Of a stretch of DNA of 64,000 bases, positions 1-51,880 are shown piece by piece. The first letter of the stretch is position 1, and each line of letters opens with the position of its first letter. The notes below the pieces were generated by a model. The model made no database searches. It worked only from the letters and a program-made list of their open reading frames with translations, and was not told where the DNA came from. This DNA is from a virus. Both the position numbers and the translations under genes were made by a program. Where the stretch lies: the IMG/VR virus record IMGVR_UViG_3300032897_000003, positions 1-64,000 of that record; one strand, given 5' to 3'.

Positions 1-312
1 CTCGGGGACCAGCTCAGGGGCCAGCTCTGGGACCAGCTCTGGGACCAGCTCAGGGGCCAGCTCTGGGGCCAGCTCAGGGGCCAGCTCGGGGGCCAGCTCG
101 GGGGCCAGCTCGGGGGCCAGCTCGGGGACCAGCTCAGGGGCCAGCTCTGGGACCAGCTCGGGGGCCAGCTCGGGGGCCAGCTCGGGGACCAGCTCTGGGA
201 CCAGCTCAGGGGCCAGCTCGGGGACCAGCTCAGGGGCCAGCTCTGGGACCAGCTCAGGGGCCAGCTCAGGGGCCAGCTCAGGGGCCAGCTCGGGGGCCAG
301 CTCAGGGACCAG
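1..312 (+). repeat. 26 x 12-bp coding tandem repeat CTC[G/A/T]GGG[A/G]CCAG
   Basis: Read directly; only two positions per unit vary. Confidence 0.95.
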
Positions 313-1011
313 CTCTGGTCAGAATTGGGGATCGAATGGTGGGGCCAACACGAAGCTTACTGGATTTCGTTCTACACATTTTGTCGCGAGATCGTCGGAG
401 CGAAATACGATGAGGTCGCGGATCGACGACTGAATATGTGGCGAGACATCGCGCAGTCGTGCTGCTGGTGGTGGTGTTACGAAAACTACGTCGTCATCAG
501 CGACAGACCAACTGTCTGCCGAATGACCGAGCAAGAGGGACGGCTGCATTGCTCGGACGGTCCAGCGCTCGCCTTCGCCGACGGGTATTCGCTCTGGCGC
601 TGGCACGGCGTCACTGTGCCCGAGGATGTGATCCTGCATCCTGAACAGATCATCGTTTCCCGCATCGACAGCGAAAGCAACGCCGAGGTTCGTCGGGTGC
701 TGATGGAGCGATACGGAGAAGCTCGATACCTGCAGGACAGCGGAGCGAAACCGATCCATCGCGACAAATACGGTGTGCTCTATCTCAAGGAAATACCCGA
801 CGACGAGCCGCTCGTCATGGTGCGGGTGGAGAACAGCACTCCCGAACCGGACGGCAGCACGAAAACCTACTTCCTGCGGGTAAACCCGGAATGCCGGCCG
901 TTGCTCGAAGATGGCACGATGGGAGAGCCACAGAAGCTGACAGCTCGAAACGCGGTGGCATCGGTGCATGGCCTGCGCGGAAAAGAATATGCACCAATGA
1001 TCGAGACCTAG
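1..1011 (+). CDS. DUF6745-like protein with N-terminal L[GRW][DG]Q repeat (5' truncated)
   Basis: Frame 1 is open from base 1 through the repeat into ORF 325..1011; motifs [69 protein letters not shown]. Confidence 0.8.
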
Positions 1012-25838: not shown

Positions 25839-26245
25839 AGACGCTGGCCATTCTCCTAATTCTCGCAGCCGGTAGCTCCGGCGGATCAATGGGCGCTGGC
25901 GGGGCCGGCACGGGCGGCGTGAAGAACACGGGCGGAAGCGTGACCGGAGGGACGCGCGGGACGGGCGGTAGGACAGGAAGCGGCGGTGGAACTGGTGGGT
26001 TTAGTACAGGCGGCCATGGAGTGTCGATTGACGCTGGAAGTGGTGGCAGCCCTGGAACCGGTGGTCGAACGGGAACAGGCGGCAGCCCAGGCGCGGGCGG
26101 GCGACCCGGCACCGGAGGGAGTGCAGGCACGGGCGGCACTCCAGGCACGGGTGGCATCCCTGGAACCGGTGGTCGACCAGGGACCGGCGGGGCCGGAGGG
26201 TATGGTATTTACTACCAGGACGCGAGACTGCGGAGGACGCAGTGA
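25835..26245 (+). CDS. Gly-rich (GGxxGT)n protein with hydrophobic N-terminus
   Basis: MKTLAILLILAA followed by GTGG repeats. Confidence 0.6.
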   Translation: MKTLAILLILAAGSSGGSMGAGGAGTGGVKNTGGSVTGGTRGTGGRTGSGGGTGGFSTGGHGVSIDAGSGGSPGTGGRTGTGGSPGAGGRPGTGGSAGTGGTPGTGGIPGTGGRPGTGGAGGYGIYYQDARLRRTQ

Positions 26246-42371: not shown

Positions 42372-45050
42372 GTGCAGTACCAAGCAGATCTTGACAAGAC
42401 CCCACCGCATGACCGAGCCGCAGAGCTCGCCGTGATCGGGTGCGCTCTGGTCACGCCAGAGGCTATCGTAGAGGTCGGAGAGCTGTACCCGACCGACTTT
42501 TTCTCGCAGGAATGTCAGGAGGCTTGGGGGGCGATCCAAGGCCTCGTCGGTGAAAGCTTGGCAGTAGATATCGTGACCGTTGGACAGCGGCTGAAGGACT
42601 CCGGGTGCGCGGATCGGTTTGAGGGCGGTTGGGCAACCTGGGCGGTTTCGGCGAGCTCGAATGTTCCAACCGTGCACAACGTGAAGCATTACGCAGACAT
42701 CGTCCGTAACAAGGCTATCTTGCGCAAGCTGATCGCAGTGGCCATCGAGACGATGTCGAGAAGCTATTCAGGGGCGAAGGCCGAGGACGTGTTGCTCGAC
42801 CTCACTTCAGCCGTGTCGGAGCTTCAAACCAGGGCCACGAGCAAAGAGCCTGCGCTGCTGAAAGACGCCATTCCAGTCGCCATCGAAACCATCAGCATGA
42901 AGTGCGACCCGAGAAATCACAACGTGCTGGTGCGGACAGGAATAGCCCCCTTGGACGCACACATCGGAGGGTTGGCACCGGAGGAAATGGTTGTTGTCGC
43001 GGCCAGGCCTGGAGTCGGGAAAACGAGCTGGGCGAATGGAGTGGCTGAGTACGCGGCTGGAGTTTGCGGGATACCGACTCTGTACATCTCCGTCGAGATG
43101 TCCCAGCAGCAGCAAATCGAGAGGTTCATTTCGATGGAGAGCGGGATCCCTGCGACGGCATTCCGCTCGGGAAGAATCGACGGGAAGACGCTGACCCTGG
43201 ACCATCACAAGAAGGTCCTGCAAGTAGGCGAGCGGCTGATGAAGATGCCGCTCTGGATAGACGCCGAGTCGATGACCCTCGGGCGTATCTTGAGCACCTC
43301 TCGACGGTGGCACGCAAAGCACGCGGTTGCCTCCGGCATGAAGATTTGTCTCATCGTCATCGACTACCTGCAGCTCATAGCAATGCAGGCGCAGGAGAAG
43401 CCTATCCCACGCGAGCAGCAGGTAGCGATGATTTCGAAGTCCTGCAAGTGGCTGGCGAAGACTCTGAAGTGCCCGGTGCTCGTGTGCAGCCAGCTCAATC
43501 GCAAGGTGGAGGAGCGAGGTGGGGAGCCAGTGTTGTCGGACTTGAGGGAGTGCCTTACCGGCGAAACGCGCATCTGGGACGCAGCTACGGGAGGGACGGT
43601 CTCCGTGCGCGATTTGTCAGCCGGCGGAAATGCTCTCGTGTGGGGTATTCGCGACCGGTACCAGATCGGATCCGCAATGGTGAGTAAGGCCTGGTCGACA
43701 GGCGTAAAGCCGGTGTACCGAGTGCAAACCGCCAGTGGCCGGGTGATACGAGCAACCGGGAATCATCCGTTCCTGACGGTTAGTGGATGGACGAAACTTG
43801 CCGAGGTGGCGCTCGGAGAGCGTATCGCTGTACCACGCTTCATCCCGCAGCATGCGTGTAAGTATAACCCGCACACCGTCGACCAGCTTCGTCTGCTCGG
43901 GTTCCTGATTTCCGACGGACACTATGGAAAGAACAGGTCGGTCGGATACGTGAAGGGAGACCACGTCCTTGTCGACGAGGTCCGGAGGATAGCGAAGTCC
44001 TCCTTTGGTATCGACGCCAAAGATCATCCCTGCCATGGAATCGCACAGCAGATCGAGCTCACCACGAAGCAAGCTGGCCCGGGGTGCAATCCGGTGATCA
44101 ACTGGCTGAAGGCGCTTGGCGTTCACGGTCAGTTGGGTCCGAAAAAGCGGATACCAGAATCGGTGTTTACCTGCGACAATGACCATGTTGCGGAATTTCT
44201 GGGTGCACTTTGGTCAGGCGATGGCTCTGTGGTTCAGAGGAAGACGGGGGGATGGGTACTCAAGTTCGCATCGACCAGCAGAGGACTCCTGCAAGACATC
44301 CAGCGCATGCTGTTGCGCTTCGGAATCGTGAGCGTGTTGGGTAATCCAAGACGCAACAGCAAGTCGACGATGGACATAGCCACTGTCACGATCGGAGATG
44401 GGGATGCAATTGCCGCATTTGCAAGGCAGATTAGGCTCCATGGTGAGAAGCAGCGAAAACTGGAGATTGCTGCCCAATGGGTTGCCAGCGAGCGCGAGCA
44501 TGAAAATGCCAGGGCAGATCGCATGCCAATCGAAATCACTGCTCATGTTTCGGCATTGAAAGAGAAGCGTGGATGGTCATGGGAAGAACTAGGATATCGC
44601 TGTCAGAAAAAGGAGATGAGCCGCGCTTCTCTGGGCAAAGTCGCTCGTAAGCTCGACGACGACAAACTGCTTGCCCTTTCCGATAGCGACATCCTGTGGG
44701 ATCAGGTCGTGGCAATTTCCCCGGACGGCAACGAAGAAGTGTTCGATGTCTCAGTGCCAGCCATGGGGAACTTTGTCGCCGATGGCTTTTTTGTCCATAA
44801 CAGCGGCGCCATAGAGCAAGATGCAGACATCGTGTTCTTTCTGCACCGGTCGGAGGATGAACAGAGCACCGTCGAAGGCGAAGTCATCTCGTGGCTCATC
44901 GCCGGAAAGAACCGCAACGGCCCGGTCGGAAAGTACAAGATGAAATTCGTTGGCGGGCGGACGAAGTTCTTCGGTGCCGAGCAGGATGACGACGGGGCCC
45001 GGGACGCCATGGGCGATCCTGCCGATGATCCACATTGGAGCGACAGATGA
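42372..45050 (+). CDS. dnaB: Replicative helicase DnaB with intein
   Basis: AARPGVGKT, IVIDYLQL, SQLNR, SDLRE|intein|SGAIEQDAD, KNRNGP. Confidence 0.95.
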   Translation: MQYQADLDKTPPHDRAAELAVIGCALVTPEAIVEVGELYPTDFFSQECQEAWGAIQGLVGESLAVDIVTVGQRLKDSGCADRFEGGWATWAVSASSNVPTVHNVKHYADIVRNKAILRKLIAVAIETMSRSYSGAKAEDVLLDLTSAVSELQTRATSKEPALLKDAIPVAIETISMKCDPRNHNVLVRTGIAPLDAHIGGLAPEEMVVVAARPGVGKTSWANGVAEYAAGVCGIPTLYISVEMSQQQQIERFISMESGIPATAFRSGRIDGKTLTLDHHKKVLQVGERLMKMPLWIDAESMTLGRILSTSRRWHAKHAVASGMKICLIVIDYLQLIAMQAQEKPIPREQQVAMISKSCKWLAKTLKCPVLVCSQLNRKVEERGGEPVLSDLRECLTGETRIWDAATGGTVSVRDLSAGGNALVWGIRDRYQIGSAMVSKAWSTGVKPVYRVQTASGRVIRATGNHPFLTVSGWTKLAEVALGERIAVPRFIPQHACKYNPHTVDQLRLLGFLISDGHYGKNRSVGYVKGDHVLVDEVRRIAKSSFGIDAKDHPCHGIAQQIELTTKQAGPGCNPVINWLKALGVHGQLGPKKRIPESVFTCDNDHVAEFLGALWSGDGSVVQRKTGGWVLKFASTSRGLLQDIQRMLLRFGIVSVLGNPRRNSKSTMDIATVTIGDGDAIAAFARQIRLHGEKQRKLEIAAQWVASEREHENARADRMPIEITAHVSALKEKRGWSWEELGYRCQKKEMSRASLGKVARKLDDDKLLALSDSDILWDQVVAISPDGNEEVFDVSVPAMGNFVADGFFVHNSGAIEQDADIVFFLHRSEDEQSTVEGEVISWLIAGKNRNGPVGKYKMKFVGGRTKFFGAEQDDDGARDAMGDPADDPHWSDR
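43551..44801 (+). mobile_element. Intein with LAGLIDADG homing endonuclease (417 aa)
   Basis: CLTGET...ATGNHPF...LLGFLISDG...FLGALWSGDG...FFVHN|S. Confidence 0.95.
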
Positions 45051-45250
45051 CGCCACAAAGCCGCAAGCTCTGGAGGATCCACGACAAGGCCTTCCGCCAA
45101 GCCAAGGCAGATGGGGCATGCTTCGACTGCGCAACTGACGCCGGGTTCGCTGCGACGGATACCGTCGCCGGACAAACGAGGGTGGCCAAGCTTTGCCCGA
45201 AGTGCACACGCAACACGAAGGAAAGGACGACACCATCATGGCCATGCTGA
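45047..45250 (+). CDS. Small CxxC Zn-finger protein
   Basis: CFDC...CPKC. Confidence 0.5.
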   Translation: MTPQSRKLWRIHDKAFRQAKADGACFDCATDAGFAATDTVAGQTRVAKLCPKCTRNTKERTTPSWPC

Positions 45251-45657
45251 GACGACTGCCCGTAAAGCTCACCAACGAGGAGTTGCTTGACCGGAGCAAG
45301 TCCCTAACCACGGAGCTCGACAAGAAGGACGCCCTAACTGCCAAGAAGAAAAGCGAGGCGGAGAAGATCGCGGGCGACATCGCCCTAGTCGAGGAAGGAA
45401 TCCAAGCCCTGCGAAAAGCGCTCCGTGACGGAGAAGAAGAGCGCGATGTCGAGTGCCACGTGCACAGGGACTTCGACAACCACACGGTGGTGACGATCCG
45501 TAACGACACCGGCGAAATCATCGAGGAGCGGCCCATGACCCAAGCCGAGCTGCAGACGTCACTGCTCGACCGTGGCGCCGAGCAACACGGGAAGCTTCTC
45601 GCAATCAACGGCGACAAGCCGAAGGGAGACGAAGAGAAGGACAAGCCGAAGAACTGA
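45238..45657 (+). CDS. Hypothetical coiled-coil protein
   Basis: RBS AAGGA. Confidence 0.7.
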   Translation: MAMLRRLPVKLTNEELLDRSKSLTTELDKKDALTAKKKSEAEKIAGDIALVEEGIQALRKALRDGEEERDVECHVHRDFDNHTVVTIRNDTGEIIEERPMTQAELQTSLLDRGAEQHGKLLAINGDKPKGDEEKDKPKN

Positions 45658-45698
45658 ACCGACACACGAGGCTGGACCACCATTCGAAAGGAGACCAT

Positions 45699-46361
45699 AT
45701 GCGACGACCGAAACCACCTACGAGCATCAACAACGTCAACGTCAGCCCGACAGCACCAGCGGACAAGCCCGGCGGAGAAAACCCGATCGAGGTTACGATC
45801 CGTCCGCTGAACCTGCAGCGCACGACCATCAAGATCCGCGGCATCAGCACGCTGATCATGCACGCCTGGAGTCAGAAGGCCATCAAGATGATCGAGGACA
45901 AGCAGCAGAAGAAAGCCACGGGGCCGCGGAAGGCGAAGGACCCGCAGGCCGACTTCGAGAGCGCGCGATATCGCATCGACAAGAACACGGACGGGATCCC
46001 GGCCATCGCGCTGAAAGCGTGCGCTGTCGAGGCCGGCGTGTTGCTCGGGCTGAAGAAGACGAACTTGCGTAAGTCCTTCTTCGTTGGGCCCGACGGCGAG
46101 GAGCTCATCCCCATCATCGTGGCCGAAGAGCCAGCGATGAGGCGGGACATGGTGCGAGTCGGGATGGGCACCAGCGACGTGCGGTACCGACCGGAGTACA
46201 AGGACTGGAGCTGCGAGATTCCGATCGAGTTCAACGCCGACGCGATCTCGGCCGACCAGCTCGTCAACCTGTTCGACCAGGGCGGGTACTCCGTCGGGGT
46301 CGGCGAGTGGCGGCCCGAAAAGGACGGGACGCACGGAAGATTCAGGGTGGTAAGCGAATAG
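45699..46361 (+). CDS. Stand-alone RAMP/Cas7-like protein
   Basis: Beta1 IKIRGISTLIMH, GIPAIALK (RAMP IP..SLK-like), C-terminal Gly-rich loop GGYSVGVGEWRPEKDGTHGRF. Confidence 0.7.
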   Translation: MRRPKPPTSINNVNVSPTAPADKPGGENPIEVTIRPLNLQRTTIKIRGISTLIMHAWSQKAIKMIEDKQQKKATGPRKAKDPQADFESARYRIDKNTDGIPAIALKACAVEAGVLLGLKKTNLRKSFFVGPDGEELIPIIVAEEPAMRRDMVRVGMGTSDVRYRPEYKDWSCEIPIEFNADAISADQLVNLFDQGGYSVGVGEWRPEKDGTHGRFRVVSE

Positions 46362-46367
46362 CTGCCC

Positions 46368-46982
46368 ATGCTGAACCACCTGGCACAGTTGCCGCGCCCT
46401 TCCCTCGACCTGACAGAAGGAGACTGTGAGATCGTCCGCAAGACGCTCGAGCAGTTGAAGTCGGAAGGGCGTGCGACACCAGATGCATTCCTCACCGCAG
46501 CGGAGCCGGAGGACAGTCCGCTCCATAAGTTTTTCGAGTGGGACAACGACCGGGCTGCGCACGAGCACCGCCTACTGCAGGCGCGCCAGCTCGTTCGCAC
46601 GGTTGTTCTTCGTCCCGTCCGCGTGGAGACGACCAGGAAAACCATCAGCGTTCGCATAAATCCAAGCGTGCGAGAGGAGGATGAGGACGACGAGCGACCG
46701 GAGCCAAGACTGCCTCTTCCGACCCCGATACCAGAAACGCAGGTGACAAGAGGGAAAATCAAGGAGCTGGCGGATCGAATCGAGGATGCGCTCAAAGATG
46801 CCCGTGGAACCATGGACATCTTCGACGAGATGAGAACGCTGCGCGAGATCTTGGCAGACCTACGGCAAAAAGCACCCTGGGAGGGAAAGCGTTGCCCGAA
46901 GTGCAGCTTGCTCGGGCATGCTCCAGGCTCACGCTTCTGCACCCCGGTGAACCAGTGTCTAGGAAGAAAGGCGATCGACTGA
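46368..46982 (+). CDS. Accessory protein between the RAMP-like gene and the array
   Basis: TPDAFL..A...SPLHKFFEWD..AA..HRL.QARQL; C-terminal CPKC...C. Confidence 0.7.
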   Translation: MLNHLAQLPRPSLDLTEGDCEIVRKTLEQLKSEGRATPDAFLTAAEPEDSPLHKFFEWDNDRAAHEHRLLQARQLVRTVVLRPVRVETTRKTISVRINPSVREEDEDDERPEPRLPLPTPIPETQVTRGKIKELADRIEDALKDARGTMDIFDEMRTLREILADLRQKAPWEGKRCPKCSLLGHAPGSRFCTPVNQCLGRKAID

Positions 46983-46985
46983 CAT

Positions 46986-47499
46986 GGCAGTAAGGGTTGG
47001 CTGGGCTTGTCTTGGATCGGCCGTCAGGTACTGGCTAGTCTGGTCGTGGCTGCGCAGGCAGTCATGGCTGGTCGGGGCGTCGATTGGCGTGGCCGTCGGG
47101 TTTGGGAGCGGCCAGGAAAGGCGGGTCCAGGCCAGGCAGTATGGGCTGGTCATGGTCGGGACATGAAGGCTTGGCTAGGCAGGCAAGGCGAGGTACGTCG
47201 GATCATGGGTAGGAACGGCAGGCGTCGAATGGCAAGGATGGGCCTCGGTGGCAAGGCCTGGCAGTCAGGGCTTGTCTGCGCCAGGAAGGGAATGGTTTGG
47301 ACAGGCAGGGCATGGATCGGCAGGAGCGGCCAGGATTTGTTGGGACAGGCGGGTCAAGTCGTGGAGTGGCAGGCATGGCTAGTCTCGGCGACGACAGGAG
47401 GGGATGGGCAGGAAGTGCTAGGCTTGGTTTGTACCGGATCGGAGGGGCAGGCGGGGCTAGTTGTGGCCCGGAACGAAGCGGAAAGGCAGGGCAGGCATG
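46986..47499 (+). ncRNA. Array of 12 putative guide units: GGC(A/C) + (G[G/T]H-NN)6-11
   Basis: Hand-parsed 5-nt periodicity; unit starts 46986, 47019, 47057, 47091, 47135, 47178, 47217, 47260, 47319, 47368, 47407, 47446. Confidence 0.8.
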
Positions 47500-47904
47500 G
47501 ACGTAGAGCAAATTGACTTGAACCACATCAAGAGAGCGGTGTTCGAGCTCGTCTGGAAGGAAGATGGGCGAGTCACGCTGTTCATCAACAAACACGACAG
47601 CCGCGTGTTCCCTCAACCGGGACCGGGGATTCTTTCTTCAGGCAGCAAGAATGATCGGCATCTCAAGGCCGAAAGAGATGGGATTTCAGGAACGATATCC
47701 GTCCGTTGGAGAAGTGAGAGTGGTGGAATCTCAAGCACGGCCAGCGAAGGGATCCCGCCAGTCGAGGTATTTCTTCCGTGGGAGTGCTTGGCCGGCATCT
47801 CGCTGGGCAATCCGAATGCTCCAGTGTTCGCTGGCGTTTGGGCTCTGTGGGAGGGCTTCACCTCGGACAATGACGTCGAGGTCCCGACGAAACAGATGTG
47901 CTGA
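47497..47904 (+). CDS. Possible SspB-like (ClpXP adaptor) protein
   Basis: DGISGTIS...VEVFLPWECLAGI resembles the SspB core. Confidence 0.4.
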   Translation: MDVEQIDLNHIKRAVFELVWKEDGRVTLFINKHDSRVFPQPGPGILSSGSKNDRHLKAERDGISGTISVRWRSESGGISSTASEGIPPVEVFLPWECLAGISLGNPNAPVFAGVWALWEGFTSDNDVEVPTKQMC

Positions 47905-48084
47905 CGACTATGATGTTCACGGCGAAGATAGGCGACATCCTCCGCTGGGACGCACAGTCGTGCTCGGTTCTTCTCGTGCATGCAGGCGACAATGCGGAGG
48001 CGGTGGCATTTCTGCGCAAGAACCGAGACGCCATTGTGCAGGTGACCGTCGAACTGGCCAAAACGAAGGAGGTGAAATAGCCAG

Positions 48085-48588
48085 ATGCCACAGGCGCAGC
48101 TCTTTGCCGAGGAGCCCAGAGCGGTGTTCAGTGACGACCGTCGCTACCGGTATCGACTTTGGCGAACCGTCGAGGACGTTGCGATCCTGAAGCGCAAGGC
48201 GGTGATGATCGGGCTCAACCCGAGCATTGCCGACGAACACGTGTTGGACCCGACTCTGAAGAGGTTCTTGTCCTTCTGCCGACTCTGGGGCTGCTCGCGT
48301 ATGGAGGTGGTCAACCTGTTCGCGCTCGTCAGCACTGATCCGTCCGGGCTGTACACGTGCGCTGATCCGGTCGGACCTGGGAACGACTTGGCCATCGACG
48401 TAGCTGTGGTCGATGCAGACGTCATTGTCGCATGCTGGGGAGCCCATCCAATGGCTGCGAAGCGGGCATCCGACGTGCTCAGTATGCTCGGTACCAGGCA
48501 GCTGATGTGCTTCGGGCGCAACCACGACGGCTCTCCCAAGCATCCGCTCTACCTGCCGAAGACGGCCGAGCTGTCGGTGTATGCATGA
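48085..48588 (+). CDS. DUF1643 family protein
   Basis: YRYRLWR, IGLNPS.AD, DPT, NLFA..STDP, ACWG, PKHPLY. Confidence 0.85.
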   Translation: MPQAQLFAEEPRAVFSDDRRYRYRLWRTVEDVAILKRKAVMIGLNPSIADEHVLDPTLKRFLSFCRLWGCSRMEVVNLFALVSTDPSGLYTCADPVGPGNDLAIDVAVVDADVIVACWGAHPMAAKRASDVLSMLGTRQLMCFGRNHDGSPKHPLYLPKTAELSVYA

Positions 48589-48944
48589 CCACGCTAGATT
48601 CGGTACTGGAAGTGCTGCGCGGGATGCGCATCATGTTCTCGGACGAGAAGGAGCTACAGGACGCGGTCGAGAAGGCGATGACGACCGCGAGTATCCCTCA
48701 CCAGCGAGAGGCTATCCTCGGGCCTCGCGACCGGATCGACTTCATGGCGGACGGGGGGATCGGAATCGAGTGCAAGATCGACCACAGCCGGGCGGACTTG
48801 CTGAGACAGCTGTTCCGCTACAGCAAACAGCCACAGGTGCGCGTCTTGGTTGTGGTGCTAGGGAAGCTGCGACTGTCCGCGCTCCCTACCGAGATGAACA
48901 ACATCCCCATCCACGTGGTCAACCTCGTGAGGGCCTTCGTTTGA
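48585..48944 (+). CDS. PD-(D/E)XK-like small nuclease
   Basis: RIDF....IGIECK, QLFRY. Confidence 0.6.
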   Translation: MTTLDSVLEVLRGMRIMFSDEKELQDAVEKAMTTASIPHQREAILGPRDRIDFMADGGIGIECKIDHSRADLLRQLFRYSKQPQVRVLVVVLGKLRLSALPTEMNNIPIHVVNLVRAFV

Positions 48945-51880
48945 GCGGGCAAGTCTCTCTATTCTCGAAAGTAGCCGAACCTGCGGCTAAGTCTGCACAT
49001 GCTGGGGTGGTCAGAGCGGTACGAATCTACGGGAAGGTGATCTACAACGTGGCCAAGCGGGCCTGGGAGATCGACTGCGAGCCGCAGGTAAGGCAGCGTC
49101 TGAAACGGGTGTTTCCGCGGATCAAGGCGGGAGCGGTCGACCTTTGCCTCGAGGACAACATCGACGCCGGGCGGGACCTGGCGTGGTTTCTCGATCGCTA
49201 TCCAATGGAGATCTCACCGGCAGACATGCGGCTCTTGCGCGAGCGAGAGACCGAGCACCGCGTGCTGGTTGAGGACATCGGACGGATCATGCAGTCGGAC
49301 TATGTGCCGACGGACATCACGTTGGCAATACCGCTGCGCAACTACCAGGCGCAGGCAGTCGATCTGACGAAGCGGGTGTTCGGGCTGCTCGATGCGGATG
49401 ATCTCGGAGTCGGGAAGACAGCCATTGGAATCGGATTGCTGGCCGATCCAAGGGCGCGTCCGGCGCTGGTCGTTACGTTGACCCACCTACCCGGGCAGTG
49501 GAAGCGCGAGATCGAACGGTTCGCCCCCGGACTCAACGTGCACATCCTGAAGAAGGGAACACCGTACAAGTTCGAGATCCGCGGCGGGCAGGAGTATTTC
49601 CCCGACGTCATCGTGACCAACTACCACAAGCTGGTCGGGTGGGCCGAAGAGCTACACGGCAAAGTCCAGACGGTGATCTTCGACGAGGCGCACGAGCTGA
49701 GGCGCAGCACGAGTGAGAAATACAGCGCTGCCAAGCGGGTCGCAGCAAAGTCGCGGTATAGGCTTGGGCTCACGGCAACCCCGATCTTCAACTTCGGTGG
49801 CGAGTTCTTCAATATCGCGGACGTGCTCCGCCCAGGAGATCTCGGAACGTGGGAGGAATTCTGCACGGAGTGGTGCAGTGGCTTCGCCGACAAGACGAAG
49901 GCCACCATTACGAAGCCGAAGGAGTTCGGGGCATACGTGCGCGAAGCTGGTTTGATGATCCGGCGTACGCGCAAAGAGGTTGGGCGCGAGCTGCCGCCGC
50001 TTACCATCTGCCCGCAGCTCGTCGATGCCGACCTGTTCTACTTGGACGAGATCGAGACCGAGGCCACCGCGCTGGCCAAGATCGTCTTGTCGGGAGGGGC
50101 TAACCCGTTCGAACAGCTGCGAGCAAGCCAGGAGCTGTCATGGAAGCTGCGCCAGGCCACTGGCGTCGCGAAGGCTCCTGCAGTAGCCGAGTTCACCCGC
50201 ATGCTTGTGGAGGGGGAAGAATCGGTCGTGCTGTTCGGATGGCACCGTGAGGTGTACCGCATCTGGGCGGAGCGGCTGGCCGACCTCGAACCGGTGTTTT
50301 TCACGGGAGAGGAGACTCCAGGGCAGAAGGAGGCAGCCGCGCAGGCCTTCATCGGTAAGAAAACCAAGTTGCTCATCATGAGCCTGCGGGCCGGGGCAGG
50401 CATCGATGGCCTGCAGAAAGCCTGCAGGACAGCCGTGTACGGTGAGATGGACTGGTCCCCGGCCGTGCACGAGCAGTGCCTCTCGAGCGATACCGAGATA
50501 TTGACGCCAGCCGGATTTCTCGGGGTTGACGCCGTAAAAGAGGGTGATGAGGTGGCTGCGTTCGACGCTGCGACCGGAGAGATTCGATGGGTTGCCGCGA
50601 CGAGCAAGGTGGATCGAACTCTCGGCGACGACGAACGGATGTACAGGTGCTACTCGAAGAAGGTCGATTTCCTGGTGACCGGGGATCACCGAATGGTCGT
50701 GAGGCGAAAAACCAGAACGACGGCAGGGGTTGGCAGGTCCCAGTGGGAGTTCGACATCGCTAGAAACATCGCGGGGTCGGCAAGACGCTTCATCCCTACG
50801 AGCGGGGTTCAGTCATCCGACGGTGTTCCTCTGAGTGACTATGAGCTAAGGCTGCTGGGATGGTTTGTGACCGACGGACATTTCAGTGGGCATCAATTGA
50901 TCTTCTATCAGGCTGAACAACAGCCGTGGAATGAAGACCTCGTCGAGGTGCTCAACGGATGCGGCATCGGGTGGACGCTCTTTAAGCGACGAGTCGTGCG
51001 GCCAAGCGGGGTCACAGTGATGAACTGGTACCACGTACCAAAGGGTAATTGCCCTCGGTGGTCAGAAGAGGAGCTAGACCAACTTCTGGCGGTGACAGGA
51101 CTCCCCGAGAGACTGGCTCTGGCGAAGAAGATGGGCAGAACAGAGTATGCGCTATACAAAAAACAGAGAAAGTGGGCACAAGGAGAACGCCCGGTCCCGG
51201 TCAAAAAGCGAGCTGGGCGTGGATATGAAACCTTGGAAAAATACCTCGATAAGAACCTCAGTCCACACCTCGACTCGATGACGAGAGAGCAATTGCGGGC
51301 TTTCCTTCGCGGAGTCAATATGGGCGATGGTGCGAAAGCGATGAAACTCAGCTACAAGATAACGAGCACGAACCGCTTGTTCTTCGACCGCCTCCAATCG
51401 CTCTGTGTGCGCCGTGGATTCTCTGCCAATTTGTCGACGCGCAACGCAGTCACCAAAGCAGGGAAGCCGATTTATGATCTGTGGATTGCCGACAAGGCAG
51501 AGGCGTCAGTCGCGCGATCAGGTAAACCCGGAGGTTTCGCGGAATGTGCGACCGAGTCTAAAGTTAGGGTGTGGTGCCTCAGCAATGAGCTCGGCACTCT
51601 AGTCACGCGCAGGAATGGGAAGGTCGCGATCGTCGGCAATTGCACTGGTCGTCTGTTGCGTGACGGACAACCGGATCCGGTGTTTGCCTATTACCTGCTG
51701 GCAGACTGTGGGAGCGACCCGGTCATCTCGGACGTGCTCGGGGTGAAGAGGGCGCAGCTGGAGGGGATTCGCGACCCGAGCGGAAATCTCATCGAGATGG
51801 CCCAAACTGATCCGGAACGGGTGAAGCGCTTGGCGGAGGCCTACTTAAGGCAGAGAAAAACGGCACCAGAGCGACAATAA
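48941..51880 (+). CDS. SNF2-family helicase with intein
   Basis: LRNYQ, ADDLGVGKT, FDEAH, LTATP, GAGIDGLQ, HEQ|intein|CTGRLLRDGQ. Confidence 0.9.
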   Translation: MSGQVSLFSKVAEPAAKSAHAGVVRAVRIYGKVIYNVAKRAWEIDCEPQVRQRLKRVFPRIKAGAVDLCLEDNIDAGRDLAWFLDRYPMEISPADMRLLRERETEHRVLVEDIGRIMQSDYVPTDITLAIPLRNYQAQAVDLTKRVFGLLDADDLGVGKTAIGIGLLADPRARPALVVTLTHLPGQWKREIERFAPGLNVHILKKGTPYKFEIRGGQEYFPDVIVTNYHKLVGWAEELHGKVQTVIFDEAHELRRSTSEKYSAAKRVAAKSRYRLGLTATPIFNFGGEFFNIADVLRPGDLGTWEEFCTEWCSGFADKTKATITKPKEFGAYVREAGLMIRRTRKEVGRELPPLTICPQLVDADLFYLDEIETEATALAKIVLSGGANPFEQLRASQELSWKLRQATGVAKAPAVAEFTRMLVEGEESVVLFGWHREVYRIWAERLADLEPVFFTGEETPGQKEAAAQAFIGKKTKLLIMSLRAGAGIDGLQKACRTAVYGEMDWSPAVHEQCLSSDTEILTPAGFLGVDAVKEGDEVAAFDAATGEIRWVAATSKVDRTLGDDERMYRCYSKKVDFLVTGDHRMVVRRKTRTTAGVGRSQWEFDIARNIAGSARRFIPTSGVQSSDGVPLSDYELRLLGWFVTDGHFSGHQLIFYQAEQQPWNEDLVEVLNGCGIGWTLFKRRVVRPSGVTVMNWYHVPKGNCPRWSEEELDQLLAVTGLPERLALAKKMGRTEYALYKKQRKWAQGERPVPVKKRAGRGYETLEKYLDKNLSPHLDSMTREQLRAFLRGVNMGDGAKAMKLSYKITSTNRLFFDRLQSLCVRRGFSANLSTRNAVTKAGKPIYDLWIADKAEASVARSGKPGGFAECATESKVRVWCLSNELGTLVTRRNGKVAIVGNCTGRLLRDGQPDPVFAYYLLADCGSDPVISDVLGVKRAQLEGIRDPSGNLIEMAQTDPERVKRLAEAYLRQRKTAPERQ
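50477..51640 (+). mobile_element. Intein with LAGLIDADG endonuclease (388 aa)
   Basis: CLSSDTEILT...VTGDH...LLGWFVTDG...FLRGVNMGDG...AIVGN|C. Confidence 0.9.

What the first reader, a model, noticed from the sequence alone, without database searches (positions are those of the whole stretch)
45699..47499. Candidate phage RNA-guided system: solo RAMP/Cas7-like gene, accessory gene and dinucleotide-coded array
Seen: a 220-aa ORF with RAMP-like motifs (IKIRGISTLIMH, GIPAIALK, C-terminal GVGEWRPEKDGTHGRF), a coupled second ORF, then immediately a ~510-nt tract with 5-nt periodicity. No cas1, cas2, cas3 or CRISPR repeats were recognised in the window. Established: RAMP/Cas7 proteins polymerise along guide RNA at a fixed number of nucleotides per subunit. 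Inference: each subunit binds one constant G(G/T)H triplet and displays the variable NN, so the target is read non-contiguously, for example to silence competing phages or host genes without a nuclease. From memory this resembles recently reported viral 'VIPR'-type RAMP systems; I could not verify that here.
Basis: partly seen in the sequence, partly recalled or inferred. Interest (0 to 1): 0.97.

Follow-up and report, generated by a model that had tools for sequence, protein, structure and literature searches.

The report
Phage VIPR locus targeting a defence gene
This wetland phage carries a VIPR system, a kind of RNA-guided gene silencer first described in 2026, and one of its guides spells out the invariant catalytic motif of a bacterial anti-phage dCTP deaminase, so the phage may use it to switch off a host defence gene.

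Summary
ORF 45699-46361 is a Vipr homologue. It matches the solved SUSP1 Vipr protein (PDB 36pp, E 2e-7; profile 2.5e-12). Its AlphaFold model (pLDDT 88) has a Csm3/Cas7 RAMP fold, and the His, thumb Arg and G-loop (E/D)-W-R RNA contacts are conserved. ORF 46368-46982 is a conserved accessory gene (vap) of unknown fold. The tract 46984-47499 holds about 90 G-(G/T)-(C/A)-N-N pentamers, broken by ten or eleven 4-nt GGCA phase shifts. The same grammar occurs beside vipr homologues in about 95% of 240 related loci and fits the published "staggered vrRNA array". VIPR was described in three 2026 preprints, so this is a new member of a known kind.

One result is new. Read by the published 1-nt-skip rule, the nine-unit guide at 47323-47367 gives 13 exact hits in IMG/VR and 4 in 401 bacterial genomes. 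All 17 lie in frame on the TTFPCHNCA zinc motif of anti-phage dCTP deaminase genes. Control patterns gave either no hits or scattered ones. This points to a counter-defence use of VIPR that the held preprints do not mention. There is no expression or binding evidence.

The parts
45699..46361 (+). vipr: 220-aa RAMP protein (Vipr homologue). The N-terminal ~35 residues are low-confidence. RRM core, thumb hairpin at about 146-167 (R162, R164), G-loop G200-V-G-E203-W204-R205-P206.
   Evidence: phmmer against PDB 36pp 'SUSP1 Vipr protein' E 2.3e-7; profile E 2.5e-12; AF2 pLDDT 87.9; Foldseek top hits Csm3/Cas7 with probability 1.0; phrog_4652 E 1e-29; 1306 homologues.
46368..46982 (+). vap: 204-aa accessory protein. 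The N-terminal helical domain (residues ~17-81, motif SPLH..FEWD..AA..RL.QAR) is conserved next to vipr. The C-terminal half is specific to this phage and ends in a Cys-rich CPKC...C...C stretch.
   Evidence: tblastn finds the N-domain directly after vipr in 131 of 243 related loci, including Mycobacterium phage Brocalys gp46. phrog_15946 E 6e-14. AF2 pLDDT 72, with the N-domain above 90, all helical. No Pfam, PDB or Foldseek match.
46984..47499 (+). vrRNA array: about 90 pentamers G-(G/T)-(C/A/T)-N-N in modules of 39-78 nt, separated by 4-nt GGCA phase breaks (the published 'staggered' architecture). It ends at the ATG of the next ORF (47497).
   Evidence: Autocorrelation and segmentation. 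The same grammar is seen in 232 related arrays with 1217 GGCA breaks.
47319..47322 (+). GGCA phase break, the 5' boundary of guide S11. Others start at 46986, 47057, 47135, 47178, 47217, 47260, 47368, 47407, 47446 and 47490.
   Evidence: Viterbi segmentation. Family-wide junction consensus GGYNN|GGCA|GGC.
47323..47367 (+). Guide S11: nine units with NN string GC CA TT TG CA GG AA GT GT. Its reverse complement reads ACx ACx TTx CCx TGx CAx AAx TGx GCx, which encodes T-T-F-P-C-H-N-C-A, the zinc-binding motif of anti-phage dCTP deaminases.
   Evidence: 13 of 13 exact IMG/VR hits and 4 of 4 hits in 401 bacterial genomes lie in dCTPase genes, in frame with skip base = wobble base. The motif is present in 117 of 120 family representatives. 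Controls.
47264..47318 (+). Guide S10: 11 units, GGCA to GGCA. No target identified.
   Evidence: 0 exact IMG/VR hits. Sub-windows and searches with up to 2 mismatches gave only scattered, out-of-frame hits.
47095..47134 (+). Guide segment S4: 8 units. No target identified.
   Evidence: 13 scattered IMG/VR hits with in-frame stops, at chance level.
47372..47406 (+). Guide S12: 7 units, GGCA to GGCA. No target identified.
   Evidence: 92 scattered IMG/VR hits, at chance level for 14 specified bases.
47182..47216 (+). Guide S7: 7 units, GGCA to GGCA. Not searched outside the phage's own genome.
   Evidence: Segmentation. No self-target.
47411..47445 (+). Guide S13: 7 units, GGCA to GGCA. Not searched outside the phage's own genome.
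   Evidence: Segmentation. No self-target.

Best explanation
The locus is a VIPR (Viral Interference Programmable Repeat) system carried by an uncultured, probably virulent, wetland phage. It consists of vipr (45699-46361), vap (46368-46982) and a 'staggered' vrRNA array (46984-47499). By homology with the characterised SUSP1 system, the inferred mechanism is as follows. The array is transcribed with the operon and cut or trimmed into about 10-12 vrRNAs of 7-15 pentamers. One Vipr protomer binds each constant triplet (here relaxed to G-G/T-C/A) through the beta-1 His55, the thumb Arg164 and the G-loop E203-W204-R205. The filament displays the NN dinucleotides, which pair with double-stranded DNA that carries NNxNNx..., and so blocks transcription without cutting. 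Shown here by computation: the complete nine-unit guide at 47323-47367 reads, codon by codon with the skipped base at the wobble position, the invariant TTFPCHNCA catalytic motif of anti-phage dCTP deaminase genes. Inferred: the phage uses this guide to silence that defence gene, whether chromosomal or prophage-borne, in its host. Because all nine residues have a single NNx codon family, synonymous changes cannot give escape. The targets of the other guides are unknown.
For: Protein. Sequence homology to the solved SUSP1 Vipr (PDB 36pp, E 2.3e-7; profile E 2.5e-12). AF2 model pLDDT 87.9, with Csm3/Cas7 top Foldseek hits at probability 1.0 and E 7e-6. The SUSP1 RNA-contact residues described in 10.64898/2026.04.26.720927 align to invariant or near-invariant residues: H17-H55, R138-R164, D177/W178/R179-E203/W204/R205, K33-K71.

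Array. It is the strongest period-5 signal in the 64 kb window. Same-strand G-rich period-5 tracts lie next to vipr homologues in 76/80 IMG/VR loci, 11/11 metagenome loci of at least 6 kb and 49/50 genome loci of at least 6 kb. GGCA is the dominant 4-nt break (515 in 89 arrays; 1217 in 232 arrays), with spacing peaks at 44, 49, 54 and 59 nt. This matches the legend of the paper's fig. S18 on 1-nt-overlapping staggered vrRNAs.

Context. The record is a virus record of 78.9 kb, 99% complete, with no Cas1 and no CRISPR-like array. No guide matches the phage's own genome above the shuffled-guide level, as the paper also reports for its systems.

Target. The S11 pattern gives 13 exact IMG/VR hits in 11 distinct genes from contigs of GC 0.47-0.65. 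All lie antisense on TTFPCHNCA, with skip base = wobble base. The genes are 500-650-aa PADLOC 'dCTPase' proteins (E 2e-152; 1e-135 to 1e-166), and four of the five records checked are proviruses. NCBI names relatives 'anti-phage dCTP deaminase'. 117 of 120 family representatives carry the motif. In 401 Pseudomonadota genomes there were 4 exact hits, all in dCTPase ORFs in frame, against 0 for the backwards control.

Controls. The same dinucleotides in reversed order gave 0 IMG/VR hits. Guides with 14 or 16 specified bases gave 92 and 13 scattered hits with stops in frame. Of 1150 guides from 232 related arrays tested in both orientations against 30 dCTPases, only S11 matches 9/9; the next best nine-unit guide matches 7/9.
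Against: No RNA data exist for this phage, so transcription, processing sites and Vipr binding are inferred from homologues only. The array is degenerate: only 42% of units are canonical GGY, against a median of 64% in related arrays, which puts it at the 7th percentile. 31% of third positions are A, a purine that the SUSP1 Y-pocket excludes. Only one of about twelve guide segments has an identifiable target. The other four guides searched outside the genome gave chance-level results. No other VIPR array in the sample carries a dCTPase guide. The host is unknown, so it is not shown that it carries a dCTPase gene. dCTP deaminase defence proteins are thought to be pre-made and activated on infection (my own knowledge of Tal et al. 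2022 and Hsueh et al. 2022, not checked here). It is therefore unclear how transcriptional repression by an incoming, apparently integrase-less phage would act in time. The vap function is unknown, and the VIPR type (I-VII) could not be assigned.
Confidence: 0.85

Rival explanations
1. The locus is a genuine VIPR system, but it works only in phage-against-phage competition, as published. The dCTPase site is then just a conserved handle that marks rival prophages. It could be used to repress or mark them, or the hit could be a relic. On this reading relief of host defence is not the selected function.
For: Four of the five checked records with S11 hits are classed as proviruses by IMG/VR. The published natural targets are satellites, prophage regulators and other VIPR loci. 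None of the other guides points to a defence gene.
Against: dCTPase is not essential to a prophage, so repressing it harms a rival only through loss of its defence function. The gene sits near the record ends and may be cargo or flanking host DNA. The same pattern also hits dCTPase genes in bacterial genome assemblies not selected for prophages. No other guide matches the dCTPase genes of those records.
Confidence: 0.2
2. The vipr gene is real, but the array is a decaying, non-functional remnant, and the S11 match is a coincidence.
For: Low share of canonical GGY units (42%, 7th percentile). Many irregular units and extra 4-nt breaks (GGCC, CGCA, TGAA, CGGT). Four of the five guides searched have no target.
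Against: S11 itself is made mostly of non-canonical units (GGA, GTC, TGT), yet it keeps perfect register and reads 18 of 18 specified bases of an invariant protein motif. Its closest IMG/VR relative, L001, shows the same GTC/GGA units, so the relaxed triplet is a trait of the clade. Vipr keeps all invariant family residues. Control patterns give 0 hits or scattered hits, and 0 of 2300 other guide orientations match.
Confidence: 0.08
3. The tract is not a guide array. It is a G-quadruplex-prone DNA element, an origin or packaging signal, or the 169-aa ORF 47007-47516 is a real gene.
For: GG runs every 5 nt could form two-tetrad quadruplexes. An open frame runs through the tract.
Against: The period is 5, not 3, and frequent 4-nt phase breaks are incompatible with a conserved reading frame. 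The tract is strand-locked to vipr in about 95% of related loci across many phyla. The NN positions are unbiased while the triplet is constant. Homologous tracts are experimentally shown to be Vipr-bound RNAs.
Confidence: 0.02
4. It is a minimal or degenerate CRISPR-Cas system (type III or IV-like) with a lone Cas7.
For: The best structural matches are Csm3/Cas7.
Against: No CRISPR repeat-spacer array and no Cas1. Sequence similarity is to Vipr, not to any Cas7 family, and there is no Pfam Cas hit. The adjacent RNA is pentameric, not repeat-spacer.
Confidence: 0.01

Closest known systems
VIPR systems (Vipr + Vap + vrRNA), type II of Escherichia phage SUSP1 and the Pseudomonas fulva prophage (bioRxiv 10.64898/2026.04.26.720920, .720927 and 2026.10.15.759431)
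   Same: A homologous RAMP protein with the same G-loop and thumb contacts. The same two-gene operon followed by pentameric GGY/NN RNA genes. Viral context. The 1-nt-skip code, with the skip base on the wobble position of a conserved coding target. No self-targeting.
   Different: Only about 26% identity to the SUSP2 orthologue, and the local alignment to SUSP1 covers the C-terminal third only. The vap is unrelated in sequence to anything solved. The array is continuous and 'staggered', broken by GGCA, with no recognisable invariant 3' tail or pseudoknot between guides. The constant triplet is relaxed (G-G/T-C/A), and the Y-pocket residues differ (E71/M72 become I103/A104; C173/T175 become V199/V201). 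The one identified target is a bacterial defence gene, not a satellite or a phage regulator.
VIPR 'staggered vrRNA arrays' (fig. S18 of 10.64898/2026.04.26.720920)
   Same: Consecutive guides overlap by one nucleotide, so one pentamer appears as a 4-nt unit. Here and in 232 related arrays this is GGCA followed by G.
   Different: The figure and supplementary data are not held, so I cannot say which VIPR type uses this architecture, or whether the published examples belong to this clade.
Cas7 / Csm3 backbone subunits of class 1 CRISPR-Cas effectors
   Same: RRM/RAMP fold with thumb and glycine-rich loop. One subunit binds per fixed number of guide nucleotides. The thumb interrupts guide-target pairing periodically.
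   Different: 5-nt rather than 6-nt periodicity. Three guide bases are sequestered per unit. No repeat-derived handle, no Cas5, Cas6, Cas10 or Cas11 partners, and no adaptation genes.
Phage counter-defence by nucleic-acid-guided or RNA-based means (phage-encoded CRISPR-Cas against PLE satellites, RNA anti-CRISPRs); from my own knowledge, not checked here
   Same: A phage carries a programmable nucleic-acid-guided device aimed at a host-resident anti-phage element.
   Different: Here the device would repress rather than cleave, and it would read a protein motif at codon resolution, so one guide covers a whole diverged gene family.

Membership tests
VIPR system | Vipr protein: homologue of the characterised Vipr RAMP family | tested here: met
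   PDB 36pp 'SUSP1 Vipr protein' E 2.3e-7 with the single sequence and 2.5e-12 with the profile. tblastn hits SUSP2 and other Felixounavirus vipr genes.
VIPR system | Single-RRM RAMP fold with thumb and glycine-rich loop | tested here: met
   AF2 pLDDT 87.9, with a beta-hairpin at 146-167 and the loop GVGEWRP at 200-206. Foldseek finds Csm3/Cas7 at probability 1.0.
VIPR system | Residues that hold the GG of each repeat (SUSP1 H17, R138, D177, W178, R179) | tested here: met
   They align to H55, R164, E203, W204 and R205. H55, R164 and R205 are invariant in 32 homologues, and E203 and W204 are at least 90% conserved. D to E is a conservative change.
VIPR system | Pyrimidine-only pocket for the third repeat base (SUSP1 E71, M72, C173, T175) | tested here: not met
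   The aligned residues are I103, A104, V199 and V201. The array has A at 31% of third positions. The paper itself lists NNNGG-type variants, so this does not exclude membership.
VIPR system | Adjacent tandem pentamer (GGY/NN or related) RNA genes on the vipr strand | tested here: met
   90 pentamers directly after vap. The same arrangement is seen in about 95% of related loci with enough flank.
VIPR system | vap accessory gene in the operon | tested here: met
   A 204-aa ORF 6 nt after vipr. Its N-domain is conserved after vipr in 131 of 243 loci. Which of vap1-6 it is could not be determined.
VIPR system | No CRISPR array or cas adaptation genes; mostly viral context | tested here: met
   Virus record, 99% complete. 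No Cas1. No repeat-spacer array. Cas2 and Cas3 were not searched separately.
VIPR system | Natural targets found by the 1-nt-skip rule, with the skip base on the wobble position and no self-target | tested here: met
   Guide S11 gives 17 of 17 exact hits in frame on dCTPase genes. No self-target. The other guides are unresolved.
VIPR system | vrRNAs are expressed, processed and bound by Vipr; the complex binds double-stranded DNA and represses transcription | not testable with these tools
   Only the source DNA metagenome holds the sequence.
VIPR type II (SUSP1-like) | Separate vrRNAs of about 100 nt, each with an invariant 3' tail or pseudoknot; vap1 | tested here: not met
   The array is continuous, with GGCA breaks and no repeated tail element. 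The Vap profile, including this phage's Vap, finds no solved structure and no Pfam family. Its similarity to SUSP vap1 was not tested directly.
CRISPR-Cas class 1 (Cas7) | Repeat-spacer array plus partner cas genes | tested here: not met
   No Pfam Cas family matches the ORF.

The most novel reading that the evidence does not exclude
A phage uses a VIPR guide as a counter-defence weapon. The nine-unit vrRNA at 47323-47367 reads the invariant zinc-binding motif (TTFPCHNCA) of anti-phage dCTP deaminases at codon resolution. A single guide could therefore silence almost any member of this diverged defence family (117 of 120 representatives), whatever its codon usage. This would extend VIPR from warfare between mobile elements to direct RNA-guided repression of bacterial immune genes.
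Probability: 0.45. Interest if true: 0.8.

Novelty: new member of a known kind. Interest (0 to 1): 0.6.

Why it matters
VIPR was described only in 2026, and its natural roles have been worked out for one E. coli phage-satellite pair. This locus belongs to a large and widespread clade: about 1300 protein clusters, prophages in many phyla, and cultured Mycobacterium and Gordonia phages. It has the continuous 'staggered' array grammar.

The target found here gives a concrete, testable case in which the wobble-skipping code addresses a protein motif rather than a DNA sequence, and in which the addressed gene is a bacterial anti-phage enzyme. If confirmed, it would add RNA-guided transcriptional silencing to the known phage counter-defence strategies. 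It would also suggest mining VIPR arrays as a catalogue of the defence genes that phages need to switch off.

Tried and rejected
- Tandem Repeats Finder on the tract found nothing. A global period-5 Fourier test was not significant. Both fail because of the phase breaks, so autocorrelation and a phase-tracking segmentation were used instead.
- Rfam gave no family at E up to 1.
- The promoter and terminator scan found no sigma-70-like promoter and no + strand terminator in 45000-48200.
- Pfam found nothing for Vipr or Vap.
- For Vap, the PDB profile search, Foldseek and the ESM Atlas gave only viral hypothetical proteins or noise.
- The word-based Vap homologue search gave only 4 weak hits.
- Guide S10 (11 units) gave 0 exact IMG/VR hits. 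Its two 9-unit sub-windows gave 3 and 16 hits that are AT-rich, duplicated or interrupted by stops. With up to 2 mismatches in 301 genomes there were 2 hits, neither in an ORF.
- Guides S4 and S12 gave scattered chance hits.
- Searches for further guides against dCTPase genes, both in this array and in 232 related arrays, found nothing. Three apparent hits were out of frame and in single genes.
- Sequencing runs: no RNA holder is listed; the only holder is the likely source wetland DNA metagenome.
- The preprint's supplementary tables are not held, so the VIPR type and vap class could not be assigned.
Full report
**Observation.**
ORF1 is 45699-46361 (220 aa). ORF2 is 46368-46982 (204 aa) and starts 6 nt after ORF1. 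The G-rich tract starts 2 nt after the ORF2 stop and runs to the ATG of the next ORF at 47497.

The tract is 44% G. Its base autocorrelation is strongly positive at lags 5 and 10 (z 8.6 and 6.7), then at lags 24 and 29 rather than 25 and 30. This means a 5-nt period that loses one base every few dozen nucleotides. That explains why a whole-tract Fourier test and Tandem Repeats Finder see nothing. A local lag-5 score reaches 0.26 against 0.0007 +/- 0.037 for the rest of the 64 kb, and the twelve top-scoring windows all lie here.

A phase-tracking segmentation gives 90 pentamers. Position 1 is G (91%), position 2 is G or T (76% / 23%), position 3 is C, A or T (58% / 31% / 9%), and positions 4-5 are unbiased. 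The pentamers are interrupted by 4-nt units, most of them GGCA, at 46986, 47057, 47135, 47178, 47217, 47260, 47319, 47368, 47407, 47446 and 47490.

**What the protein is.**
Pfam has no match, and PHROGs places ORF1 in phrog_4652 of unknown function. Against PDB sequences, ORF1 hits one entry, 36pp 'SUSP1 Vipr protein', at E 2.3e-7. A 32-sequence profile raises this to 2.5e-12.

The AlphaFold model built with that alignment has pLDDT 87.9. Its best Foldseek matches in the PDB are Csm3/Cas7 subunits of type III and type VII effectors, with probability 1.0 and E down to 7e-6.

Three 2026 bioRxiv preprints describe Viral Interference Programmable Repeat systems. In these systems a lone RAMP protein (Vipr) polymerises on vrRNAs made of GGY/NN pentamers, with one protomer per repeat. 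[quoted passage not shown] The residues reported to hold the two guanines in SUSP1 are H17, R138, D177, W178 and R179. They align to H55, R164, E203, W204 and R205 here, and these are invariant or nearly so in the family. SUSP2 numbering was checked against the PDB chain alignment. The residues of the pyrimidine pocket differ: E71/M72/C173/T175 align to I103/A104/V199/V201. This may go with the frequent A at the third repeat position, but that link is inference only.

**Conservation of the arrangement.**
The family is large, with 1306 clusters at E <= 1e-3. A same-strand, G-rich period-5 tract lies within about 1 kb of the vipr homologue in:
- 76 of 80 IMG/VR loci; three of the four exceptions are cut off soon after the gene;
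- 11 of 11 metagenome loci of at least 6 kb;
- 49 of 50 bacterial-genome loci of at least 6 kb.

It usually follows a short second gene. The 80 IMG/VR loci hold 89 arrays with 6144 pentamers, whose profile is G 88% / G 81% / Y 88% / N / N. In these arrays the 4-nt units are GGCA 515 times, with every other type at 17 or fewer, and they are spaced 44, 49, 54 or 59 nt apart. Over all 232 distinct arrays there are 1217 GGCA breaks with the context GGYNN|GGCA|GGC.

This is what the legend of the paper's fig. S18 calls staggered arrays, in which neighbouring vrRNAs overlap by one nucleotide. The window's array has the same punctuation but is more degenerate. Only 42% of its units are canonical GGY, against a median of 64%, which puts it at the 7th percentile. 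Its nearest IMG/VR relative, L001, shows the same GTC and GGA units.

The accessory protein's N-terminal helical domain is found directly after vipr in 131 of 243 loci, and in Mycobacterium phage Brocalys gp46. Its fold and function remain unknown.

The genome is a 78.9-kb IMG/VR virus record, 99% complete, from a wetland metagenome. It has no Cas1, no tyrosine integrase, no cytidine deaminase and no CRISPR-like array.

**Targets.**
I cut the array at every phase break and turned each in-phase run into an NNx pattern, as the paper does. No guide matches the phage's own genome better than shuffled guides do.

The complete GGCA-to-GGCA module at 47323-47367 has nine units with NN = GC CA TT TG CA GG AA GT GT. 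It gave 13 exact matches in IMG/VR. All 13, in 11 distinct genes from contigs of GC 0.47-0.65 with different wobble bases and flanks, lie on the antisense strand of the same peptide, TTFPCHNCA. The skipped base falls at the wobble position each time.

The genes encode 500-650-aa two-domain proteins. They match the PADLOC 'dCTPase' model at E 2e-152 (1e-135 to 1e-166 in five records, four of which are classed as proviruses) and Pfam dCMP_cyt_deam_1. NCBI names their relatives 'anti-phage dCTP deaminase'. The motif is present in 117 of 120 family representatives at 47-90% identity. All nine residues have a single NNx codon family, so the guide matches whatever the codon usage.

In an independent collection of 401 Pseudomonadota genomes, the pattern hit four times, each time in frame in a 520-590-aa dCTPase ORF. 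The built-in backwards control hit none.

**Controls.**
- The same dinucleotides in reversed order gave 0 IMG/VR hits.
- Guides with 16 and 14 specified bases gave 13 and 92 hits, scattered and with stop codons in frame. This implies fewer than about one chance hit for 18 specified bases.
- Two AT-rich 18-base sub-patterns of S10 gave 3 and 16 hits, with duplicates or stops and no shared motif.
- Of 1150 guides from 232 related arrays tested in both orientations against 30 dCTPases at codon-family level, only this guide reaches 9/9. The next best nine-unit guide reaches 7/9.
- Seven of the nine units of this guide are non-canonical (GGA, GTC, TGT), yet the register is perfect. This argues that the relaxed triplet is functional rather than decay.

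**Limits.**
Nothing here shows that the array is transcribed, where it is cut, or that the protein binds it. Only the source DNA run holds the sequence.

Only one guide has a target. The other four guides searched outside the genome (S4, S10, S12 and the S10 sub-windows) gave chance-level results, and S7, S13 and S14 were searched only against the phage's own genome and the dCTPase genes.

The host is unknown. How repression of a defence gene whose product may already be present would help an incoming phage is unresolved. The vrRNA is also complementary to the sense (mRNA-like) strand of the target, so an effect on RNA cannot be excluded.

None of the three VIPR preprints mentions deaminases or host defence genes as targets, but their supplementary target tables are not held.

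**Verdict.**
The finding is a correctly recognised VIPR locus, a new member of a kind that has been known since April 2026. Its array has the staggered architecture and a relaxed constant triplet. The added value of this analysis is the family-wide array grammar and, above all, one guide whose only exact matches in two databases are the catalytic motif of anti-phage dCTP deaminase genes. That is a specific and testable hint that VIPR can serve as phage counter-defence.

Noticed in passing
window 1-315: 26 head-to-tail copies of the 12-nt unit CTCAGGGGCCAG (89% matches) lie at the very start of the virus record. They could be a terminal or packaging-related repeat, or an assembly edge.
   Followed up: no
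window 42372-45050 and 48581-51880: The 892-aa DnaB-like helicase ORF and the 1099-aa SNF2-like helicase ORF both look interrupted by inteins. This is judged from their translations (a Cys-start insertion with homing-endonuclease-like middle parts) and was not verified with a family search.
   Followed up: no
L083 (Mycobacterium phage Brocalys NC_031262) about 1670-1900: A clean GGC-NN array with GGCA breaks lies upstream of the vipr homologue gp45. The annotated gp45 start (locus 1896) falls inside the array, so the gene start is probably mis-called. Cultured Mycobacterium and Gordonia phages carry this clade of Vipr at 35-39% identity and could serve as laboratory models.
   Followed up: partly
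window 47007-47516: A 169-aa open frame runs through the array only because the G-rich sequence lacks stop codons. Gene callers are likely to annotate it as a hypothetical protein.
   Followed up: partly
G001, G003-G005 (IMG/VR proviruses behind L249, L256, L252, L255): In four proviruses the anti-phage dCTP deaminase gene sits within a few kb of a record end in three and about 19 kb from the end in the fourth (G003). This suggests prophage cargo or flanking host DNA.
   Followed up: no
window 26042-26190: A Gly/Pro-rich tandem repeat with periods of 18, 36 and 54 nt lies inside a coding region and may be a collagen-like stretch of a structural protein.
   Followed up: no
window 47497-47904: The 135-aa ORF that starts at the last bases of the array has no Pfam or PHROG match. 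Its ribosome-binding region would lie inside the final array units.
   Followed up: no
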